Shown here: piece by piece, positions 25,062-61,887 of the stretch
How positions within the stretch are numbered: position 1 is the stretch's first letter
Layout: the number at the start of each line of letters is the position of its first letter
Source: Neophaeotheca triangularis
Lineage: Eukaryota
Direction of reading: 5' to 3'
Assembly (NCBI GenBank): GCA_054600435.1
Contig: BAAIJX010000034.1
Coordinates: forward strand, 62,001 to 126,000
DNA length: 64,000 bases
Program-made: the position numbers and the translations under genes
The notes under the pieces: model-generated
The model's input: the letters and a program-made list of their open reading frames with translations, nothing else
What the model was told of the DNA's origin: nothing
Database searches by the model: none

Positions 25062-25595
25062 CTTATTGAAAGTGACGAGCCGACGTACTAATAAAGCGCA
25101 AGAACCCAGTACCTGACGGTCTACCGTTGAAGTCAGAGGCCTTGTATGCCTTGTCAACATGTATGGGTGACTGTCTTGAACGTCAACAAACACTTAGGAA
25201 GGTAGAGGGAAGCTGAAGCCGAGTCGAGTAGTAGAAAGTACGCCGGGCTGGAGTCCGTAACATTCAGTGACCGGGAGCAAGGTCGTGTGATTTGCTAGCT
25301 CCGCCTCGACTTGGGACAGTCACCGGAGCGCAAACACGGGATAATGTCAAGGTAAGGTACTAGTTAGTACCTAAGAAGGGTACTAGTAATATTATTGTAT
25401 TGTTGATTAGGCGCATTTGAAGCAACGCCTGGATGCAGCTACAAGACCCCTGAGCTCGACACCGAACCCGAGACCGAACCGGAGGAGCAGGGCAAAGCAC
25501 GGACTCTATCAAAAAGCAACGGCGTCCGTTAGAGACACCGAAAAGCTCCACTCCTCCTCCACTTCAACCTCGCAAGAAGCAAAAAAGATATCAAA

Positions 25596-25714
25596 AGATG
25601 CAGCAGGTGGGATTCCCACGTGGTCACCCACCGTAGTACTAATCACCCGCTTCAGTGCTTAAGTTCTCGAGAGCGGACGGGATCGACTGTATACACTGAG
25701 CTCTGGCCGCATCT
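25596..25714 (-). rRNA. 5S rRNA gene (dispersed copy, 119 nt)
   Basis: The minus strand reads AGATGCGGCCAGAGCTCAGTG...GATCCCGTCCGCTC...TTAAGC...TTAGTACTACGGTGGGTGACCACGTGGGAAT...GCTGCATCT. Helix I (AGAUGCGGC/GCUGCAUCU), helix II (GCUCAGUG/CACUGAAGC), loop C and loop E are intact. It is followed by T4 and T6 terminators, with TATATA at about -25 to -30. Confidence 0.95.
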
Positions 25715-53653: not shown

Positions 53654-56600
53654 TCAGTCCCCAAGTACACTCTCACGTTCAGCATCCTCAACCCCAGCCA
53701 TAGCCTCATCGCCATCGCCATCGCCATCGATCCCTTGTCCCTGTCCTTCCCCCTCCCCCTCCCCCTCCCCGTCAACCTCCAACTCCTTGCTCACAATAGC
53801 CTCTTCCTCATCCACAATCTCATCCTCATCCTCCTCATCCTCAACAACAACCTCCCGGCTCTTCGCCGCGAGCACCCTCTTCCCAGCCTTAGCCTTCCCC
53901 CTCGCATCACCCGCACTAACTCCCTTCGCCTTCTTTCCCTTTCCCTTAGCCCCGCCCAAGAATCTACCCTGCTCCAAAAACCCACAGACCTCTCTAAAAT
54001 TGCCCCCCAGCCTCTGCGTATTCCGCCTCACTCGCGCCTTCACAGCCTCGCTGTCTGTAAAAACATCGGCGAAAATCGCGTGGATAAATTTGCCGGTGAG
54101 TGTGCAAAGCCCCTCTTCTGCGAGAAGCGTCTGGAGCAGTTTGCGCTCCCGACGGCCAGCGGCGCCCTGAGATTGCGAAGTCTGGGTAGCTTGTTGGGTA
54201 GGCTCGTCGTCTTCAGAGGCGGACTCGTTATCGGAGGAGTCGAAGGGGTCGGCGTGAATGTCCTCTTCTTCCTCCTCTTCTGCGGCGTCCTCGGCATCGG
54301 AACCGTTGGCTTTGTTCTTGCCGCGACGGGTATGAATGGGTGCTTCTTCGAGTTTCTTGCCGCTGAGCGCGGCATATTTCTTCTCCGTTGCCGCAAAGAC
54401 TTTGATCAGGAGTTTCACTGTTGGCGGTTCGAAGGCCATCGTCAGCACCGTGTAATCGTCACTCATGCCCTCTTTGGGCTGTAGATCTCTCAAAATGGCT
54501 GCCGAGGAGTATAGTTCCAACAGGTTTCCTGCGAGGGCTGAGCAGACGTCGTCCTGGGATTTACGGCTCTCAAGGGCAGAAGTGAGGTTCGCGACGTAAG
54601 CATCACGGCGTCCTGCGAGGGTTTCGATTTCAGATTCGGCAATGTCGGTTGTGCCAGTCTGTACGCGGTCAATGATAGATTTGAGTTGCCAGCGGAAGTA
54701 GAAGAGTGCGGCTTCGGAGGCGCGACGGGCGATTTCATCTTCGAGAGCCGTGTCGGAGTGGTCAAGTGTTGTGTCTGTGGGGATTGCGCGGCGGATTAGG
54801 CCGACAGTAAACTCGATGCCCCCTGTGTAGGTAGTATCGGTGCTTTTGTCGCTGGCAGAGATGGCAGGATCGTTCAGGGCCGAGGTGCAGTCGCATACGG
54901 AGGAGAGGCGGATAACGCGGAGCAGGTTGTTGGAGAGAGCTATGAGGGCGTCGGTCTCCAAAGAGCCTCGCACGGCGACGTTGGGCGCTTCGAGGAGCTC
55001 GGCGAGGTTGTTAACGACGTCTTCCCAGAGACTGGTGAGCTTCTCCTCCGTTAGATCATCTAGTTCGCCGTAGCTCTTTGCGTGGAGGATGGCGCCACTA
55101 GCCGGGCCGAGAACTTCATCTGTGCTGTGGGAAATGAATTGCTGCTTGATATGGTCAAGAAGCGTGCCATAGGCTGTCGCGTCTTGATGCAGCTCTTCTA
55201 GCGATGGGAGGTTGAGAGTGTTCTCCAATCGCAGTACTGCACCGGCCGAGCTTGGAGTGTCGCCAAACTTCTTCAAAAGCTTCGGAATGAGAGCAGCAAG
55301 ATGTCGAGCAGATTCCTCTTGCTCCTCCTGTAGCTGCGCCTTTTGCTTCTTGCTGAGTTTGCTCTTCGACGATGCAGCCTTGTCGGCGAAGTCGGTCAGT
55401 GTACGCTTCACACTCGCGCTCAGTACCTCCAACAAGACGCTCTCTTCTTTCTCGGTAAGCACACACTCATGCTTGAACATGGAAAAGGTATCGTTGGAAA
55501 CACCGTTCGAGCGCGCCAATGAGTGATCAAAGAGAAGATAACCCGCGAGCACTTGCCACTCCTTTACCTCATCAACGTAGTTGTAGAGCGAGTCTGCGGC
55601 TAGCGTGAAACGAGACTCGAGACCAGTAGCATGAAGAGCGAACGAAGGATCGCCTCGTGTACGCTCAATCTGATGAGGCAAGGCCTCTTCACCGTCGTAC
55701 GACTGCAGCATCTCTGCCAGACACTTGAAGCTCAGCCAATCCATTTGTGGCGTCTCGTAATTGTCTTCGCCCACCTCCGGCAGGGCTTCGCGAAGAGCTT
55801 CCTCACCACCGAGATCATCGAGTTTGCCGTTGTATGTGTCTTTGATACTTTCGGCGAAAAAGCCAGCCACGGCCTTGCGCACTTTGACGTCCGAGTCGAA
55901 GATCAACCGACCTACTGCGTCGATATCGTCTGGCTCTATGAGGCCATTCTCGCGCAGCAGATCGAGTAGCTCGACACCCGAAGCGCGCACGTTGGACTCC
56001 GAGTCGGAAGTTGCAATCTCAACGATCCGTGTCCTGAATCGCTCCGTGAAAGTCTTCAGCCCAGCCAGCTTTTCGCTGTCCTTGTAGATTCTTTGCAGTT
56101 GCTTAACGACCTCTGCTCTCGTTAGATGTGAAGCGTCGCTGAGAACCCAGCCCATGTAACGGAGATGGGTCCCATCGAAGAAGACCGCTGGCAAGATCAT
56201 GATCCAGTCACCGAGCGCGGCCATGCAATCGCGTCTTATCGCGGGATCAATGTCGCGGTATCGATGAATAAAGACCGTCTCAAACCAGTCTTTGATCAGA
56301 GCTTCGTAGAACTCCTGCAGTAAACCAGCATCGTGAGCCTTCTGCTGGAAGTCCTTGACGCGAGCCTTGTTCACAGTCTTTTTCTTCGCCTCTGAATCGG
56401 CGTGTTGCTGGATTGTTGCCGCGTCATCTGTGCGCTCTCTTGCAAGATGACACAATCCGGTAATGATGCTGAGCGAGACTACCGTAGCCGTATGCCTAAA
56501 CCCTCGGTTTGCTGCAGAAGACATGGCCGACGTCCAGACCTGAACATTCTCGAGCAACTCTGAGTTCTCAAAGAGCAAGTTCGCGGCGTGCAGGGTCTTG

Positions 56601-57301
56601 AGGAGGGTTTGTAGAAAACTTGAGACCGAATCTTTAAAGGCAGCAGCTCCCTTGCCCTTTGCGATGAGTGGGTAGTCCGTTGGATTCGAGGCCTGGTATT
56701 CCTCCTGTATCTCCTCAAGCTTGTTCGTGGCGCCATCAGGATCCTCAATATCGTGGTCTGTGACCTTGCTGTCGCATCCGGCGCATTTCAGAATAAAATT
56801 TATGACATCGCCCATGGCGTGCGCTTCGTGCTCTTGAAACTGCGCCAACCACGTCGCCGCCACATCCTCCATCTTACGTCCACTTGCAAAGACTTCGGCA
56901 TACAGTCCTCCAGCTTCTCGCGCGTCGGTTCCGGCCAACGCTTTCGCGGTCTTAGGCGCTCTCTTCTTCCCGCCAGTTGTTCTGAGAGGTAATGCTGTGG
57001 TCGCAATCGTCTTGGCCTTCTTCTGAGCCGGCTTCTTCGCCGTGCTCTTCTTTTGCTTTCGGGCTTTTGCGCGCTTCTCGCGTAGCTCTTCCTCGTCGGC
57101 TTCCTCCTCTTCCGAGACTTCGTCTTCCTCGGAAACGTAATCCTCCGGCATCGCGCGATCACCATCTACATCCGCGTCGCGCTTGCGCTTGCCGTTGGCG
57201 AAGGGGCTGGTCGCGTACATGGTCTCTGGTGCTTTGCGCACGCGGCCGGACGCGCGCGGCGCCTTCGTCGCATCGATTTCGGCTTGTGGAGACGAAGACA
57301 T
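53654..57301 (-). CDS. SCC3: Cohesin subunit Scc3/Psc3 (STAG domain)
   Basis: DYPLIAKGK, SSAANRGFRHTAT, VFIHRYRDIDPAIRRDCMAALGDW, FFDGTHLRYMGWVLSD and FTERFRTRIVEIA. 1215 aa, no intron. Confidence 0.95.
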   Translation of the reverse strand: MSSSPQAEIDATKAPRASGRVRKAPETMYATSPFANGKRKRDADVDGDRAMPEDYVSEEDEVSEEEEADEEELREKRAKARKQKKSTAKKPAQKKAKTIATTALPLRTTGGKKRAPKTAKALAGTDAREAGGLYAEVFASGRKMEDVAATWLAQFQEHEAHAMGDVINFILKCAGCDSKVTDHDIEDPDGATNKLEEIQEEYQASNPTDYPLIAKGKGAAAFKDSVSSFLQTLLKTLHAANLLFENSELLENVQVWTSAMSSAANRGFRHTATVVSLSIITGLCHLARERTDDAATIQQHADSEAKKKTVNKARVKDFQQKAHDAGLLQEFYEALIKDWFETVFIHRYRDIDPAIRRDCMAALGDWIMILPAVFFDGTHLRYMGWVLSDASHLTRAEVVKQLQRIYKDSEKLAGLKTFTERFRTRIVEIATSDSESNVRASGVELLDLLRENGLIEPDDIDAVGRLIFDSDVKVRKAVAGFFAESIKDTYNGKLDDLGGEEALREALPEVGEDNYETPQMDWLSFKCLAEMLQSYDGEEALPHQIERTRGDPSFALHATGLESRFTLAADSLYNYVDEVKEWQVLAGYLLFDHSLARSNGVSNDTFSMFKHECVLTEKEESVLLEVLSASVKRTLTDFADKAASSKSKLSKKQKAQLQEEQEESARHLAALIPKLLKKFGDTPSSAGAVLRLENTLNLPSLEELHQDATAYGTLLDHIKQQFISHSTDEVLGPASGAILHAKSYGELDDLTEEKLTSLWEDVVNNLAELLEAPNVAVRGSLETDALIALSNNLLRVIRLSSVCDCTSALNDPAISASDKSTDTTYTGGIEFTVGLIRRAIPTDTTLDHSDTALEDEIARRASEAALFYFRWQLKSIIDRVQTGTTDIAESEIETLAGRRDAYVANLTSALESRKSQDDVCSALAGNLLELYSSAAILRDLQPKEGMSDDYTVLTMAFEPPTVKLLIKVFAATEKKYAALSGKKLEEAPIHTRRGKNKANGSDAEDAAEEEEEEDIHADPFDSSDNESASEDDEPTQQATQTSQSQGAAGRRERKLLQTLLAEEGLCTLTGKFIHAIFADVFTDSEAVKARVRRNTQRLGGNFREVCGFLEQGRFLGGAKGKGKKAKGVSAGDARGKAKAGKRVLAAKSREVVVEDEEDEDEIVDEEEAIVSKELEVDGEGEGEGEGQGQGIDGDGDGDEAMAGVEDAERESVLGD

Positions 57302-57709
57302 GTCGCCAATTTCTTCCTAAATACCGGTGCTACGCGATATAGACGAGTATTAGATCGCGAATAGTTGAGCGCGTCTTTAAAGCGGTGGAAGCGGGGCGAA
57401 AGCTGCGCATTCAACCTCAGGAGCAGTCTACAGGCGCTGCTAGGTTTCGATCAAAACAGTGACGCTCAAAAAGGCGGATGTTGTAAGATGAATGAATGGA
57501 GGCATATATTCGAGCGTTTTAAACAAACGGAAGTCGCGTCGTCTCTATCGGTCGCGGTCTCCCCACTTCTGTCTACACTGCCTGACGAGATCTTATCTTA
57601 TCTCATCTAATCGCAACCTCATCTCCAGACGAATCCTCCGCTGACTTCACTTCGTCCGAAAAAGGCTCTGCCCAATCCAGTAACAATAATTGTGCTGCAA
57701 CCGCCCAGA

Positions 57710-58693
57710 ATGCCTCACAAACACACAAGAGGAAAAACGCGAGACGCGAAGAAGTACGCTCTGCCCGTCAACCGAGCTTGCAACCCACCAACTAACCCTA
57801 TTTCCCCAAGCTACAACCTCCCCCCAGACGAAGTAGCAAAACCGCTCCCCGTCAAGCAAGCAGCGAGTAAAGCCCCCGAAGATGGCAGCAAAAAGCCCGC
57901 CAAGAAGCGCAAACGTGCCAACGGTCCCGAAGACGACACGCCTCAGGCGTTCAAACGTCTGATGCAGTACCAAAGCGGCAAGAGACTGCCGTCCGGCCTG
58001 GACAACGGCGAGAAGCCCAAACGCAAGAAGAGCGAGAAAAGTCACAAAGCTCCCGATACCAAACCAACTCCCGATAAAGCGCGCGCGGCGGCGGAGGGTG
58101 CTACGGCAGCCGCGGCTCCGAGGATTCAACCTGGGGAGAAAATGTCGGAGTTTTCTGCTAGAGTCGACCAGGCGTTGCCGGTTAGTGGGTTGTCGAGGAA
58201 GCGGAAGAGCGGGGTTGAGGGGATCAAGGAGCGGCGGACAAAAACGGAGAAGCGTATGCATAAGATGTATGATCAGTGGCGGGAGGAGGAGGCTAAGCGT
58301 AAGGAGCGAGCGGAAGAAGCCGAAGAGCAGGCTGAGGAGGAGGAGGCGGAGCTTGAGACTGAGTTGGGCGGTCAGCAGGTTTCGCTCCCTGAGGGCAAGC
58401 GTGCGAAGAGGAAGCGCATGATTGGCGAGCAGAAGGAGGACGATGAGGACCCTTGGGCGCGGCTGAAGTTGGAGAGAGGTGGGCCTAGGGGTTTGCATGA
58501 TGTGGTGCAGGCGCCGCCGGAGATGAAACATGTGCCCAGGGAAAAGTTTAAGACGTTCAAGGGGGCGAAAGTGGATGTTGCTGATGTGCCGGCGGCGAGT
58601 GGAAGTTTGAAACGCAGGGAGGAGCTCGGGGAGGCGAGAAAGGATGTTATTGAGAGGTATAGGGCTATGATGAGGCAGGGTGGGGGGCAGTAG
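57710..58693 (+). CDS. Conserved basic nuclear/nucleolar protein (UPF0653 / CCDC137-like)
   Basis: MPHKH..YNLPP..AKPLP, DDTPQAFKRLM, RIQPGEKMSEFSARVDQALP, LHDVVQAPP and ARKDVIERYRAMM. Probable 57-nt intron at 57754-57810. Confidence 0.7.
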   Translation: MPHKHTRGKTRDAKKYALPVNRACNPPTNPISPSYNLPPDEVAKPLPVKQAASKAPEDGSKKPAKKRKRANGPEDDTPQAFKRLMQYQSGKRLPSGLDNGEKPKRKKSEKSHKAPDTKPTPDKARAAAEGATAAAAPRIQPGEKMSEFSARVDQALPVSGLSRKRKSGVEGIKERRTKTEKRMHKMYDQWREEEAKRKERAEEAEEQAEEEEAELETELGGQQVSLPEGKRAKRKRMIGEQKEDDEDPWARLKLERGGPRGLHDVVQAPPEMKHVPREKFKTFKGAKVDVADVPAASGSLKRREELGEARKDVIERYRAMMRQGGGQ

Positions 58694-58975: not shown

Positions 58976-59482
58976 CTAATCCTCATCCTCGTCAGCGGCC
59001 TCTGTGCCACCGACGACCGCATCCTCCATCTCCTCGTCCTCCTCGTCTTCCTCCGTCACCTTCTCGGCCGACTTCTTCCCCTTCTTGGGGGTGGCCTTCC
59101 CCCCTTTCCCCTTCCCTTTCTTGGTGGCGGGAGTCTCGTCCCCGTCACCCTCCTCCTCGTCGTCCCCCTCCGCAGCCGCCGAGCGCTTTTTCCCCTTGGC
59201 GGAAGCTGCCTTCTTCTTCGGCTTCGGGGTGCTGGTGGCAGCCCCGTCGTCATCGTCATCTTCCTCGGCCTCCTCCGCATCCACCCCGGCACCCTCCTTC
59301 GCAATCTTCTTCTTGAGCGAACGCCAGGCGTTGGACGCCGAGCGGGTGTTCGTGAACGCCATCTCGGAGGCCAACTTCACGAAATCGACCTCAGGCTCCG
59401 TCTTGTAGCATTGCAAGACCTTGGCCAAGATCTTGACTTCACGGTCCGTGAACGCAATGGTTTTCTGCTGCTTGGGTGCCAT
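58976..59482 (-). CDS. Small putative chromatin protein: Myb/SANT-like N-domain with a Lys/acidic low-complexity tail
   Basis: FTDREVKILAKVLQCYKTEPEVDFVKLASEMAFTNTRSASNAWRSLKKKI is a helix-turn-helix-like fungal motif, followed by TPKPKKK/TPATKK/TPKK repeats and D/E runs. ATG at 59482. Confidence 0.65.
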   Translation of the reverse strand: MAPKQQKTIAFTDREVKILAKVLQCYKTEPEVDFVKLASEMAFTNTRSASNAWRSLKKKIAKEGAGVDAEEAEEDDDDDGAATSTPKPKKKAASAKGKKRSAAAEGDDEEEGDGDETPATKKGKGKGGKATPKKGKKSAEKVTEEDEEDEEMEDAVVGGTEAADEDED

Positions 59483-60280
59483 TGTGATGCTGGTTGTGAT
59501 TCTGGTGGGAAAAAGCTGTGAAGATGTCAGCAAATCTATGTGACGTTTCACACCAAGGTAGGTGAAGAATCAGGTGAAGTTTCGCTTACGTTGTGGTGAA
59601 GTGGAGGCGGGTTTTCTTTCAAGGAAGAAGATGTCAGTATATACTTTTCACTTGCTAGTGTCGTATAGCACGGCGGCGTCATGCGAAAGAGCATTGCATA
59701 CTTGTTGTCGGAGTAGTGGATATAGTGTGGGATGTCGAAATTGAGTAGGTGGAGGTTGCGAAAGATCCCAGGCTGGTAGTATTGGCCGCCTTGTGTGGGA
59801 GAGATGTTGGTGTGGTGTTGATGTAGTATTGGAAGATGTAGAAGGTTAATAAAGGCTTGGAGACGTGGTGGTAGTTGGTGGTGGAAGGAGGTGGGTGTTG
59901 TTGGTGTGTTATGGAAAGGAGAAGAAGTTGGTAGGAGCCAGGAGCCAAAGATATAGTTTCCAAACGGCGCTAGTGGAAGTTCACGTGGATGCGCTATTGT
60001 GAATGCGGCTACGGTGGAACTCTCTGGAACCGCAGCCTCAGGCCCTTGAGGTATACTTGAGGACTTGCCAGCAGGATGCGAGGTGAGGCAAAGGACGCTT
60101 GAAGACCGCCAGTGAAGTGCGGGGCGAGCTAAGGTAAGTAACCCCTGAAGTCCCGTTTTGAGACTACCGGTGAGGTACGAGGCGAGGTGAAGTGATTCTC
60201 AGCCCTTACCCCTTACTAAGGCATCAATCACTTGGACCTTCACTCCAGACTATAAATATAGCTCATTGCCCACCACCTTC

Positions 60281-60523
60281 GGCCTCACGGTCAAGTGGTC
60301 AATTTGGGAGTTCGTTTCGCTCGCCGAGGGTCATGGGTCTTTAGCTACTTCGGGCACACAAAGCTAAAGTTGTGCGTTCGAGCCGCAGCGCGCGCAATAC
60401 CTTCAATGGTTCTGAGAAGCTAGAGTCCATTGGGGGACTTTAGTGGGATTGGGGTCGTGCTGCGCTTTCTTCGCAGTCGGGTCTCGGCATTGGAGGGTCG
60501 TCTACTGACGGCTATAGCTTTTT
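60281..60523 (+). ncRNA. Candidate RNA polymerase III-transcribed structured ncRNA of unknown class
   Basis: TATAAATA at 60251-60258, A-box-like CGGTCAAGTGG at 60288-60298, B-box GTTCGAGCC at 60376-60384, T5 runs at 60519-60523 and 60527-60531. Five nested helices, with the 5' end pairing to the 3' end. Confidence 0.6.
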
Positions 60524-60813
60524 GTATTTTTGTGGCCGGGTAATGCTTTATGGCCCTGTTTGTAGCTGTGTCTAGCTGTGCCTCTTTGATATCCTTTTGC
60601 TCGAGGTTCGATCATTGGGCGTGTATCCACCGTGAAGCCGGGGTCTTTTGTCGCCAAAATTCAGGGGTCGCAAGTAGTCGGCTCCGTGGTAACACTACTT
60701 TCGATCCGCTTTCGGTAACCCTGGGTACTCTCTTTGGAAATTCGAGCAGCGTTTTGGATATTTTCGGCTTATTTTGCTCTTCCATTGCTTGCCTGCATAA
60801 TGTTCCATCTCAA

Positions 60814-61887
60814 TTACTTCAAACATAAGAGCGCCCTCTCCCCAAAGCCCGCCTCGACGCTTCCCTCCTCAACAAGCATATCTCTAACCCACTGCCTCCC
60901 GACCTCTACACTCGGAGCACCAAACTTGACCACGACGCAACCCCTCAAACTCGCCGCAGTCCAGAGCACGCCCTCCTTCGCCTCCCACCTCTGCCTCTCA
61001 GTCCGCCACTTCTCCCGTGGCGAGGGAACAACCTCGAAATCATCCTCACCACTGCCACTACCCGAACGACTCGTACCACCAGACGCAAACCCCCTCCCAC
61101 CTAATCTAGGCAAAAGCTGAAACTCCCTCATGAAAAACTGCCCCAACAACTCGACCAACGGCCCATGCAAGATCAACGTCCCAAAAACCTCCAGCGAATA
61201 CATCCGGTCCGCCAACATCCCCTTGGGACCGTCCCTCGCATCAAGAGACACATTATCCCTCAGCAACAGCCTTCTCCCCCCACCACCTCCCCCTTCCGCA
61301 ACAACCCAAACCTCATTCAAACTCCCATACCGCCAAAACCCCCACTCCTCCCCCCTAGCTGCCCGCCCAGAAGAAACCCAGTCCAGCACACAAACACTCG
61401 CGCCCCCACCACCACCGCCACCAGCCACCACCGGGACTTCCCAAACCTGCCTCTGCTCAAACGAACTACACTCAAACGGCTGCACCGGATCCGGCAAATA
61501 GCAAACCCCGGCGCCCCTTTCCAGCCGCGTAGTCATAACCTGCCGGCTCAAAACTTCTGCATCGGCAGTCTTGAAAATTTTCGTCGAGCCCTGCGTCAGC
61601 AACACTAGCCGCGTAGAGCTCTCGAGGTGCAGGGATAGATTTAGCGTGTCTGAGGCTACGATGCCGCCGCCGTAGGTTAGGAGGTAGATTGTGTGGATTA
61701 GGGTTTTGGGCGCTGGTTCTTGGTCACGATTGGTGGAAGTCGTGAGGGCTGTGGGTGCGGGCGCGATCAGTTTGAGGGGGTATTGGTATTTGAGAGTTTT
61801 GAGGCGGGGGGTGTTGGGCGGAAGGAGGGCGAGGTGGATGGTTCCTTCGCCTGGGGTGATGGAGGGGACGCTGAAAGGGTTCGGCAT
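60814..61887 (-). CDS. ureD: Urease accessory protein UreD
   Basis: LKYQYPLKLIAP, YLLTYGGGIVASD, LLTQGSTKIFK, YLPDPVQPF..F.Q.Q and LDWVSSGRAARGEEW. Confidence 0.94.
   Translation of the reverse strand: MPNPFSVPSITPGEGTIHLALLPPNTPRLKTLKYQYPLKLIAPAPTALTTSTNRDQEPAPKTLIHTIYLLTYGGGIVASDTLNLSLHLESSTRLVLLTQGSTKIFKTADAEVLSRQVMTTRLERGAGVCYLPDPVQPFECSSFEQRQVWEVPVVAGGGGGGGASVCVLDWVSSGRAARGEEWGFWRYGSLNEVWVVAEGGGGGGRRLLLRDNVSLDARDGPKGMLADRMYSLEVFGTLILHGPLVELLGQFFMREFQLLPRLGGRGFASGGTSRSGSGSGEDDFEVVPSPREKWRTERQRWEAKEGVLWTAASLRGCVVVKFGAPSVEVGRQWVRDMLVEEGSVEAGFGERALLCLK

What the first reader, a model, noticed from the sequence alone, without database searches (positions are those of the whole stretch)
60251..60531. 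Unassigned ~240-nt Pol III-type structured RNA gene between the Myb-like gene and ureD
Seen in sequence: TATAAATA lies exactly 30 nt before G60281. An A-box-like 11-mer (CGGTCAAGTGG, one mismatch to TRGYNNARNGG) sits at +8, a B-box (GTTCGAGCC) sits in a T-arm-like hairpin (TGCG-TTCGAGC-CGCA), and two T5 runs follow. Between them the plus strand folds in nested fashion: GGCC/GGCT and GTC(A)AGTGG 60290-98 with CTACTGAC 60502-09 close the ends; GCCGAGG 60323-29 with TCTCGGC 60482-88; side hairpin CTTTAGCT 60339-46 with AGCTAAAG 60362-69; GCAGCGCG 60385-92 with CGTGCTGC 60456-63 (this competes with the B-box hairpin); apical CCTTCAATGG 60400-09 with CCATTGGGGG 60427-36. The G-U pairs favour the plus strand. 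Established: TATA, internal A/B boxes and an oligo-T terminator form the promoter layout of fungal Pol III genes such as SRP RNA, and Neurospora milRNA precursors are Pol III products. It is not a tRNA (no acceptor stem after the T-arm). I cannot find the SRP Alu/helix-8 motifs, U6 ACAGAGA, RNase P/MRP CR-I/CR-V, or box C. Inference: an undescribed Pol III ncRNA, a milRNA precursor or a tRNA-derived SINE head. The end-closing bulged stem loosely recalls Y/vault RNAs, which is speculative.
Basis: partly seen in the sequence, partly recalled or inferred. Interest (0 to 1): 0.78.

Follow-up and report, generated by a model that had tools for sequence, protein, structure and literature searches.

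The report
Possible unassigned Pol III RNA gene
A 240-base stretch downstream of a fungal urease accessory gene carries all the signals of a small-RNA gene read by RNA polymerase III, but it matches no known RNA family and there is no evidence yet that it is transcribed or conserved.

Summary
The promoter-like layout is rarer than chance. TATAAATA at -30, an A-box with one mismatch at +8, GTTCGAGCC 88 nt later and two T5 runs occur together once in the window. They occur together in 1 of 1000 dinucleotide shuffles. The window's real 5S rRNA gene has the same layout: TATATAT starting exactly at -30, then T4 and T6.

The claimed nested fold is not supported. The z-score is -0.90, and the end-closing stems and the T-arm have about zero pair probability. 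A more stable local hairpin (60259-60347) straddles the presumed start site. The G-U strand bias is a composition effect that runs 750 nt further left.

No Rfam family matches on either strand in five scans, and ARAGORN finds no tRNA. SRP, U6, RNase P and snoRNA motifs are absent on the plus strand. No genome, homologue or RNA data could be obtained.

Verdict: a credible but unproven stand-alone Pol III unit of unassigned family (about 0.4). Almost as likely (about 0.38) it is ordinary intergenic DNA: the ureD 3' end plus the neighbour's upstream region.

The parts
60251..60258 (+). TATAAATA, presumed TFIIIB/TBP site at -30
   Evidence: Read. It is one of 13 TATAWAW sites in the window on both strands. 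The 5S gene has TATATAT starting at -30.
60281..60523 (+). Presumed Pol III transcript, about 240 nt, from G60281 to the first T5 run. Inferred, not shown.
   Evidence: Position is inferred from the TATA box and the T5 run. C is at -1 and G at +1. There is no T4 run inside before 60519. No ORF exceeds 63 codons. No Rfam hit.
60288..60298 (+). A-box-like CGGTCAAGTGG, 10 of 11 to TRGYNNARNGG
   Evidence: This is a weak element on its own: 305 sites with at most 1 mismatch occur in the window on both strands.
60373..60387 (+). B-box GTTCGAGCC (60376-60384) in a T-arm-like hairpin, 4-bp stem and 7-nt loop TTCGAGC
   Evidence: It is the only one of 20 GTTCRANNC matches in the window with a stem of at least 4 bp. 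Shuffles give a mean of 1.04 such sites per window. The hairpin has pair probability 0.000 in the full-length ensemble.
60519..60531 (+). Two T5 runs (60519-60523 and 60527-60531), presumed Pol III terminator. On the minus strand this is an A-rich tract 283-297 nt past the ureD stop codon.
   Evidence: For comparison, the 5S gene ends in T4 then T6.
60259..60347 (.). Imperfect inverted repeat or hairpin: 19 bp in three blocks, arms 60259-60283 and 60323-60347. It straddles the presumed start site.
   Evidence: z is -3.29 on plus and -3.96 on minus, with 0 of 200 shuffles as stable on either strand. Background: 4 of 639 100-nt windows reach z <= -3.3.
60400..60513 (+). Three consecutive hairpins in the 3' half: 60400-60436, 60438-60495 and 60496-60513
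   Evidence: Folding 60396-60520 plus gives MFE -48.7, z -3.39, 0 of 200 shuffles. The minus strand gives z -2.72, 1 of 200. I chose the boundaries after seeing the fold.
60260..60577 (.). Cluster of seven AGCT tetramers, with TATAGCT at 60257-60263 and again at 60513-60519
   Evidence: Seven in 330 nt is the maximum of the whole window and is found only here. The share of 330-nt windows with at least 6 is 0.0046.
60432..60442 (-). UAAAGUCCCCC, 9 of 10 to the RNase MRP CR-I consensus as I recall it. A possible partner GGGACUU lies at 60154-60148.
   Evidence: (pair I3, 13 nt, 85% complementary). No Rfam RNase_MRP or RNaseP_nuc hit at E <= 10.

Best explanation
The plus strand 60251-60531 is a stand-alone RNA polymerase III transcription unit of the fungal hybrid type. 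TBP/TFIIIB would sit on TATAAATA at -30. TFIIIC would bind the internal A-box (+8) and the B-box (+96, in a T-arm-like hairpin). Transcription would start at G60281 and stop in the T5-GTA-T5 terminator. The product would be a non-coding RNA of about 240 nt with a U-tail. It belongs to no described family. Its most stable parts are three hairpins in the 3' half. What is shown: the sequence signals, their rarity, and the absence of coding potential or of any known RNA family. What is inferred: transcription, the polymerase, the RNA ends and any function. The most likely function is a lineage-specific small RNA, or a small-RNA precursor like the Pol III-made milRNA precursors of Neurospora.
For: The composite (TATA, A-box, B-box, T5) is found once in the real window, at 60251/60288/60376/60519, and in 1 of 1000 shuffles. 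The only certified Pol III gene in the window is 5S rRNA at 25595-25714 minus (89.6 bits). It has TATATAT starting exactly 30 nt before its +1 and ends in T4 then T6, which is the same geometry. The B-box is the only one of 20 in the window that sits in a hairpin of at least 4 bp with a 7-nt loop. No T4 run lies inside the presumed transcript. No ORF exceeds 63 codons in six frames. The 3' half folds better than 200 of 200 shuffles on the plus strand. Neurospora milR loci are Pol III units with T-stretches, TATA-like elements and, in some, putative A and B boxes (PMC3547838, passages).
Against: The presumed RNA as a whole folds no better than shuffles (z -0.90). Moving the 5' end to 60257 improves z to -2.26 on plus and -2.43 on minus, because a hairpin at 60259-60347 straddles the presumed start. 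That fits a DNA-level or minus-strand feature better than an RNA starting at 60281. The structure signals are about equal on both strands. The A-box is a weak element (305 near-matches). The number of B-boxes equals the shuffle expectation, 20 against 20.3. I defined the composite after seeing the candidate, and shuffles under-represent real T-runs. On the minus strand the T5 runs and the TATA box read as A-rich and UAUAUUUAUA elements downstream of ureD, which are plausible polyadenylation signals (inference). There are no Rfam hits. No conservation or expression data exist.
Confidence: 0.4

Rival explanations
1. There is no dedicated RNA gene. The stretch is ordinary intergenic DNA between two minus-strand genes: the 3' UTR and polyadenylation region of ureD, plus the distal upstream region of the Myb-like gene. 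The Pol III-like motifs co-occur by chance. The hairpins are a by-product of a cluster of palindromic AGCT motifs, which may be protein-binding sites.
For: Both flanking genes are on the minus strand: ureD at 60814-61887 (Pfam UreD 1e-52) and the Myb-like gene at 58976-59482. The full-length fold has z -0.90. The local hairpins score about equally on both strands, and one of them straddles the presumed start site. The AGCT cluster is the densest in the window. The G>C skew continues 750 nt to the left. There are 305 near-matches to the A-box, and B-boxes occur at the shuffle expectation. On the ureD sense strand the T5 runs and the TATA box read as A-rich and UAUAUUUAUA elements 283-566 nt past the stop codon (read; their role is inferred). 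No Rfam family matches.
Against: The four-element composite appears in 1 of 1000 shuffles and only here in the real window. Its geometry copies that of the window's 5S gene. The B-box sits in a canonical T-arm-like hairpin. No T4 run lies inside the presumed transcript.
Confidence: 0.38
2. The TATA box drives a Pol II non-coding transcript on the plus strand, convergent with and partly antisense to ureD. It could be an lncRNA or an independently transcribed small RNA. The A and B boxes and the T-runs would then be incidental.
For: TATAAATA 30 nt upstream of a C/G start is equally a Pol II core promoter. Downstream ORFs are short; the longest ATG ORF is 92 aa at 60550-60828 with no Pfam match.
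Against: It does not account for the A-box, B-box and T5 composite. No C/D or H/ACA box layout is present: no RUGAUGA with at most 1 mismatch, and ACA occurs only at 60356 and 60358, far from any plausible 3' end. No snRNA or snoRNA family matches in Rfam.
Confidence: 0.1
3. The stretch is a retroposed or decayed Pol III-derived element: a low-copy SINE or a tRNA-related relic inserted downstream of ureD.
For: It has internal A and B boxes and a T-arm-like hairpin. A 7-nt direct repeat, TATAGCT, lies at 60257-60263 and 60513-60519 and brackets the unit. Fungal tRNA-related SINEs with 4-14 bp target duplications exist (PMC5063351, search listing and abstract start only).
Against: A-to-B spacing is 88 nt, against about 30-60 nt in tRNA-derived heads (recalled). 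There is no D-arm or acceptor complement (read; ARAGORN found none). There is no A-rich or simple-repeat tail. There is no second copy in 64 kb. The well-placed TATA box would have to be a coincidence of the insertion site.
Confidence: 0.06
4. The real gene is on the minus strand. It would be an RNase MRP/P-like RNA of about 400 nt (roughly 60520 to 60100) with a CR-I-like UAAAGUCCCCC and a P4-like partner.
For: UAAAGUCCCC at 60442 on the minus strand is 9 of 10 to the MRP CR-I consensus as I recall it. A complementary GGGACUU lies about 280 nt downstream (pair I3). A 9-bp pairing joins 60512-60504 to 60113-60105 (read).
Against: There is no RNase_MRP or RNaseP_nuc hit at E <= 10 in scans covering 59400-61000 and 60060-60560 on both strands. 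No GARAR loop sits in the right place. About 32 nt separate the P4-like strand from the closing strand, unlike known MRP RNAs (recalled). I noticed the motifs post hoc, and each could occur by chance.
Confidence: 0.03

Closest known systems
Fungal Pol III genes with an upstream TATA plus internal A and B boxes: S. cerevisiae SCR1 (7SL), RPR1, SNR52, and the TATA-dependent Pol III genes of S. pombe (recalled; Hamada et al. 2001 and Dieci et al. 2002 were not read here)
   Same: TATA at about -30, an A-box close to the start, a B-box tens of nt further on, an oligo-T terminator, and a product of a few hundred nt.
   Different: The product matches none of these RNAs. Rfam is negative. UGUAAU, GGAGCA, CR-I and the C box are absent on the plus strand. 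Transcription is not shown.
The 5S rRNA gene of the same window (25595-25714, minus strand)
   Same: A TATA element starting exactly 30 nt before +1, pyrimidine at -1 and purine at +1, and two closely spaced T-runs as terminator.
   Different: 5S uses a type-1 internal promoter and is a certified family member (89.6 bits). The candidate has type-2 style boxes and no family.
Neurospora crassa milRNA loci transcribed by Pol III (PMC3547838, passages read)
   Same: Short non-coding units in a filamentous ascomycete with a T-stretch terminator, TATA-like elements and, in some, putative A and B boxes. They are lineage-specific and absent from Rfam.
   Different: Those loci are defined by sequenced small RNAs and Pol III ChIP or inhibitor data, and none exist here. 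The candidate's hairpins (15 bp; about 22 bp, rich in G-U) are not clean miRNA-like duplexes.
tRNA genes and the T arm
   Same: The A-box lies at the tRNA position-8 register relative to the presumed 5' end. The B-box is a 7-nt TTCGAGC loop closed by G-C with a 4-bp stem.
   Different: There is no D stem, no anticodon arm and no acceptor complement. A-to-B spacing is 88 nt. ARAGORN finds no tRNA in the window.
Y RNAs and bacterial YrlA (tRNA-mimicking Y RNAs; PMC4201824, search listing and abstract start only) and vault RNAs
   Same: They are Pol III products (in eukaryotes) in which the 5' and 3' ends can pair. YrlA combines a closing stem with a T-arm-like module.
   Different: No Y_RNA, YrlA or Vault hit at E <= 10. 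The closing stem has about zero ensemble probability. Length is about 240 nt against about 100. Whether this fungus has Ro60 could not be checked, since no genome is held.

Membership tests
Pol III type-2/TATA hybrid transcription unit | TATA element about 30 nt upstream of the start | tested here: met
   TATAAATA at 60251-60258, 30 nt before G60281. The 5S gene has the same offset.
Pol III type-2/TATA hybrid transcription unit | Internal A-box (TRGYNNARNGG) and B-box (GTTCRANNC), with oligo-T termination and no internal terminator | tested here: met
   A-box 10 of 11, B-box exact, T5 twice, no internal T4 run. The composite appears in 1 of 1000 shuffles.
Pol III type-2/TATA hybrid transcription unit | Actual transcription by Pol III, with TFIIIC and TFIIIB occupancy | not testable with these tools
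   No RNA holder was listed. The one run laid consists of low-depth contigs of unknown kind.
tRNA | Cloverleaf with acceptor, D, anticodon and T arms | tested here: not met
   ARAGORN finds 0 genes in the window. There is no tRNA hit in Rfam at E <= 10. Only a T-arm-like hairpin is present.
SRP (7SL) RNA | Alu-domain UGUAAU motif and the helix-8 GNAR loop with GGAGCA-type loops. The S domain is canonical throughout Ascomycota (PMC4605306, passages). | tested here: not met
   No SRP family reaches E <= 10. TGTAAT and GGAGCA are absent on the plus strand even with 1 mismatch (motifs recalled).
Nuclear RNase P / RNase MRP RNA | CR-I and CR-V forming P4, a P3 domain, and a match to RF00009 or RF00030 | tested here: not met
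   Plus strand: no CR-I with at most 1 mismatch. Minus strand: a CR-I-like 9 of 10 and a 7-bp partner, but no Rfam hit at E <= 10.
U6 snRNA | ACAGAGA box and a match to RF00026 | tested here: not met
   No ACAGAGA with at most 1 mismatch on either strand. No Rfam hit.
C/D or H/ACA snoRNA (including an SNR52-type Pol III snoRNA) | C box RUGAUGA with D box CUGA and a terminal stem; or hairpin, ANANNA, hairpin, then ACA 3 nt from the 3' end | tested here: not met
   No C box with at most 1 mismatch. ACA occurs only at 60356 and 60358, more than 150 nt from the T-runs. No snoRNA family at E <= 10 inside 60275-60530.
SINE | Many dispersed copies, target-site duplications, and an A-rich or LINE-derived tail | tested here: inconclusive
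   There is one copy in the 64-kb window, and no genome is held. A 7-nt direct repeat TATAGCT brackets the unit. No A-rich tail is present.
milRNA precursor | A hairpin that yields discrete small RNAs of about 19-25 nt | not testable with these tools
   No small-RNA data are available. The candidate hairpins lie at 60400-60436 and 60438-60495.
Y RNA / vault RNA | Conserved end-closing stem with the Ro-binding bulged helix (Y), or a vault RNA match | tested here: not met
   No Rfam hit. The closing stems have a mean pair probability of 0.000.

The most novel reading that the evidence does not exclude
This is the founding member of an undescribed family of Pol III-transcribed structured RNAs of about 240 nt in filamentous ascomycetes. 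It would be driven by a TATA, A-box and B-box promoter, and its B-box doubles as a tRNA-like T-arm. It would be a lineage-specific small RNA outside the tRNA, 5S, U6, 7SL and RNase P set. Its role could be as a small-RNA precursor or, far less likely, as a Y/YrlA-like RNA with a tRNA-mimic module.
Probability: 0.3. Interest if true: 0.65.

Novelty: new member of a known kind. Interest (0 to 1): 0.4.

Why it matters
Outside tRNA, 5S, U6, 7SL and RNase P RNA, very few Pol III products are known in filamentous fungi. The Neurospora milRNA loci are the main exception. A verified extra Pol III gene with a clean TATA, A-box, B-box and T-run architecture would add to that short list. It would give a compact native Pol III promoter and terminator pair for this fungal lineage, and an RNA of unknown function to study. 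If it is only a chance composite, it is a useful caution. A full set of Pol III consensus elements can arise in the AT-rich and T-rich signals of a convergent gene end, and hand-drawn nested helices in G+U-rich sequence are not evidence of structure.

Tried and rejected
The window's own genome is not held, so copy number and the presence of canonical SRP, MRP or Ro60 genes could not be checked.

Sequencing runs: no RNA holder was listed. The only run, X1, is of unknown kind. Its Logan contigs come from a close relative at low depth. They cover parts of 60314-60916 and none of 59510-60313. Contigs of unknown kind cannot show a transcript, its strand or its ends, so nothing is concluded from them.

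Metagenome scan with the UreD protein: 91 pattern matches, 0 confirmed relatives.

blastn of window 60101-60700 against all 120 loci gave only the seed plus or minus a few bases. The best hit was 42.8 bits over 23 nt, and the longest was 46 nt at 80% (I inspected the top 40 of 141 rows). So 0 of 120 loci are homologues.

The search of earlier findings by place, by sequence and by words gave nothing that bears on this locus.

A full-text search for the 18-mer found 0 papers.

Rfam was run with gathering thresholds on the whole window and with E <= 10 on four sub-windows. The only hits were the 5S gene and a chance-level sR2 hit at 59558-59611 (E 7.4).

SRP, RNase P, MRP, U6 and C/D or H/ACA readings of the plus strand were rejected on motifs.

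A MITE reading was rejected by eye, because the ends next to the TATAGCT repeats are not inverted repeats.

Searching the protein databases with the short intergenic ORFs was considered and not run. None has a start codon and a length that a gene caller would report.

PMC2566860 (passages) held nothing relevant on Neurospora TATA elements.

Full report
SETTING. The window is ascomycete DNA. The nearest protein-atlas clusters of the UreD protein are Ascomycota. No whole genome is held for it. The finding lies in a 1.3-kb gap between two genes that are both on the minus strand. One is ureD, CDS 60814-61887 (Pfam UreD, E 1e-52). The other is a small acidic protein, CDS 58976-59482, with a sub-threshold Myb-like match (PF22980, E 0.014; frame). 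The stretch is therefore downstream of ureD and far upstream of the Myb-like gene. A plus-strand transcript would be convergent with ureD.

THE OBSERVATION. All coordinates are correct:
- TATAAATA at 60251-60258.
- G60281 lies 30 nt after its first T.
- CGGTCAAGTGG at 60288-60298, with one mismatch to TRGYNNARNGG.
- GTTCGAGCC at 60376-60384, inside TGCG/TTCGAGC/CGCA.
- T5 at 60519-60523 and at 60527-60531.
All seven listed helices consist of standard pairs.

IS THE PROMOTER LAYOUT MORE THAN CHANCE? I scanned both strands for the following composite: TATAWAW; then an A-box with at most 1 mismatch starting 33-60 nt after the start of the TATA element; then GTTCRANNC 30-120 nt later; no T5 before it; and a T5 within 400 nt after it. 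The real window has exactly one hit, the candidate. Only 1 of 1000 dinucleotide-preserving shuffles had any hit, whether the whole window or 1-kb blocks were shuffled.

There are caveats. I wrote the definition after seeing the candidate. Shuffles under-represent real T-runs. TATA elements and T-runs concentrate in intergenic DNA. From the real element counts (13 TATAWAW, 20 B-boxes, 305 near-A-boxes and 88 T5+ runs on both strands) I estimate 0.004-0.01 chance composites per window (inference).

The B-box is the only one of the 20 in the window with a flanking stem of at least 4 bp. Shuffled windows nevertheless contain 1.04 such sites on average. This adds roughly a twenty-fold factor per B-box and is not proof.

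An internal positive control helps. The window's only certified Pol III gene is 5S rRNA (25595-25714 minus, 89.6 bits). It has TATATAT starting exactly 30 nt before its first base, C at -1 and a purine at +1, and it ends in T4 then T6. The candidate copies that geometry. The presumed transcript has no internal T4 run and no ORF above 63 codons in any frame.

IS THE STRUCTURE MORE THAN CHANCE? The 60281-60520 plus strand folds at -85.7 kcal/mol against -81.5 for shuffles (z -0.90; 38 of 200 shuffles are as good). The minus strand gives z -1.11. In the ensemble both end-closing stems and the T-arm have probability 0.000. Only GCAGCGCG/CGTGCTGC (0.49) and the apical stem (0.60) survive. The large energy gap between the strands is equally present in the shuffles. 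The G>C skew continues through 59500-60250, so the argument that G-U pairs favour the plus strand reflects composition only.

Two local features do stand out:
- An imperfect 19-bp hairpin at 60259-60347 has z -3.29 on plus and -3.96 on minus, with 0 of 200 shuffles on either strand.
- Three consecutive hairpins lie in 60396-60520. On plus, z is -3.39 with 0 of 200 shuffles. On minus, z is -2.72 with 1 of 200.
For background, 4 of 639 non-overlapping 100-nt windows of this sequence reach z <= -3.3. With about 50 overlapping windows examined, each feature is unusual but not compelling.

The first hairpin straddles the presumed start site. Moving the 5' boundary to 60257 improves z to -2.26 on plus and -2.43 on minus. 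That argues against an RNA beginning at 60281 owning this helix. The region also holds the densest AGCT cluster of the whole window: seven in 330 nt, a unique maximum. TATAGCT occurs at both edges, at 60257 and at 60513. Palindromic tetramers generate helices on both strands alike, which may explain part of the fold signal.

WHAT IT IS NOT. There is no tRNA (ARAGORN, 0 genes). There is no Rfam family at gathering thresholds other than 5S. Nothing relevant reaches E <= 10 in four sub-window scans on both strands. On the plus strand the following are absent even with one mismatch: C box, U6 ACAGAGA, SRP UGUAAU, GGAGCA, and RNase P or MRP CR-I. ACA occurs only internally (the motifs are recalled). 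Ascomycete SRP RNAs keep a canonical S domain (PMC4605306, passages), so a hidden SRP RNA is unlikely.

I raised one rival myself. The minus strand carries UAAAGUCCCC, which is 9 of 10 to the MRP CR-I, with a complementary GGGACUU about 280 nt downstream. Rfam gives no MRP or P hit at E <= 10 over 59400-61000, and the spacing is wrong. I give this reading 0.03.

COMPARATIVE AND EXPRESSION EVIDENCE. None could be obtained. Details are under Tried and rejected.

MECHANISM AND ODDS. The best single reading (0.40) is a stand-alone Pol III unit. TFIIIB would sit on the TATA box and TFIIIC on the A and B boxes. Transcription would start at G60281 and end in the double T5. The product would be a U-tailed non-coding RNA of about 240 nt and of unassigned family, structured mainly in its 3' half. 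It is closest in kind to the fungal TATA-plus-internal-promoter genes (SCR1, RPR1, SNR52; recalled) and to the lineage-specific Pol III milRNA loci of Neurospora (PMC3547838).

Nearly as likely (0.38) is that there is no gene. On the ureD sense strand the T5 runs and the TATA box read as A-rich and UAUAUUUAUA elements 283-566 nt past the stop codon. These are plausible polyadenylation signals. The fold signals are strand-symmetric and tied to an AGCT motif cluster.

The smaller rivals are a Pol II non-coding transcript from the same TATA box (0.10), a low-copy SINE or tRNA-related relic bracketed by TATAGCT (0.06), and the minus-strand MRP-like RNA (0.03).

VERDICT. The structural part, and the Y/vault analogy built on it, do not hold. 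The Pol III interpretation is reasonable but unproven. Interest is moderate (0.4). A Northern blot or a single BLAST against the full genome and its relatives would settle it.

Noticed in passing
window 25595-25714 (-), flanks to 25744 and 25575: A 5S rRNA gene (Rfam 89.6 bits). TATATAT starts exactly 30 nt upstream of +1, and the terminator is T4 then T6. It served as an internal control for Pol III gene geometry in this genome.
   Followed up: yes
window 60259-60347: An imperfect 19-bp inverted repeat in three blocks, with z -3.3 on plus and -4.0 on minus. It lies immediately after the TATA box and encloses the A-box. It could be a DNA-level palindrome, a minus-strand RNA hairpin, or chance.
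   Followed up: partly
window 60257-60580: The densest AGCT cluster of the window, with seven sites. It includes TATAGCT at 60257 and 60513, and a tandem pair TAGCTGTG / TAGCTGTG at 60563-60581. It may be a cluster of protein-binding sites. The binding factor is unknown.
   Followed up: partly
window 60190-60233 (-): A perfect 8-bp stem, AAGTGATT/AATCACTT (pair I6). On the minus strand it encloses a C-box-like UUGAUGC and a CUGA. It resembles a miniature C/D-box layout, but at about 44 nt it is too short for a snoRNA.
   Followed up: no
window 59548-60198 (-): A 216-codon frame with no stop codon in the 'intergenic' region upstream of the Myb-like gene. It has no long ATG ORF and no Pfam match. 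It is probably a by-product of the C-rich, G-poor composition of that strand.
   Followed up: partly
window 53654-57301 (-): A large ORF encoding a cohesin SCC3/STAG-family protein (Pfam STAG, SCD and HEAT_SCC3-SA domains).
   Followed up: no
window 57611-58693 (+): A lysine- and arginine-rich ORF of about 330 aa with no significant Pfam match. The only hit is Mor at E 0.012, below the family cutoff. It is convergent with the Myb-like gene.
   Followed up: no
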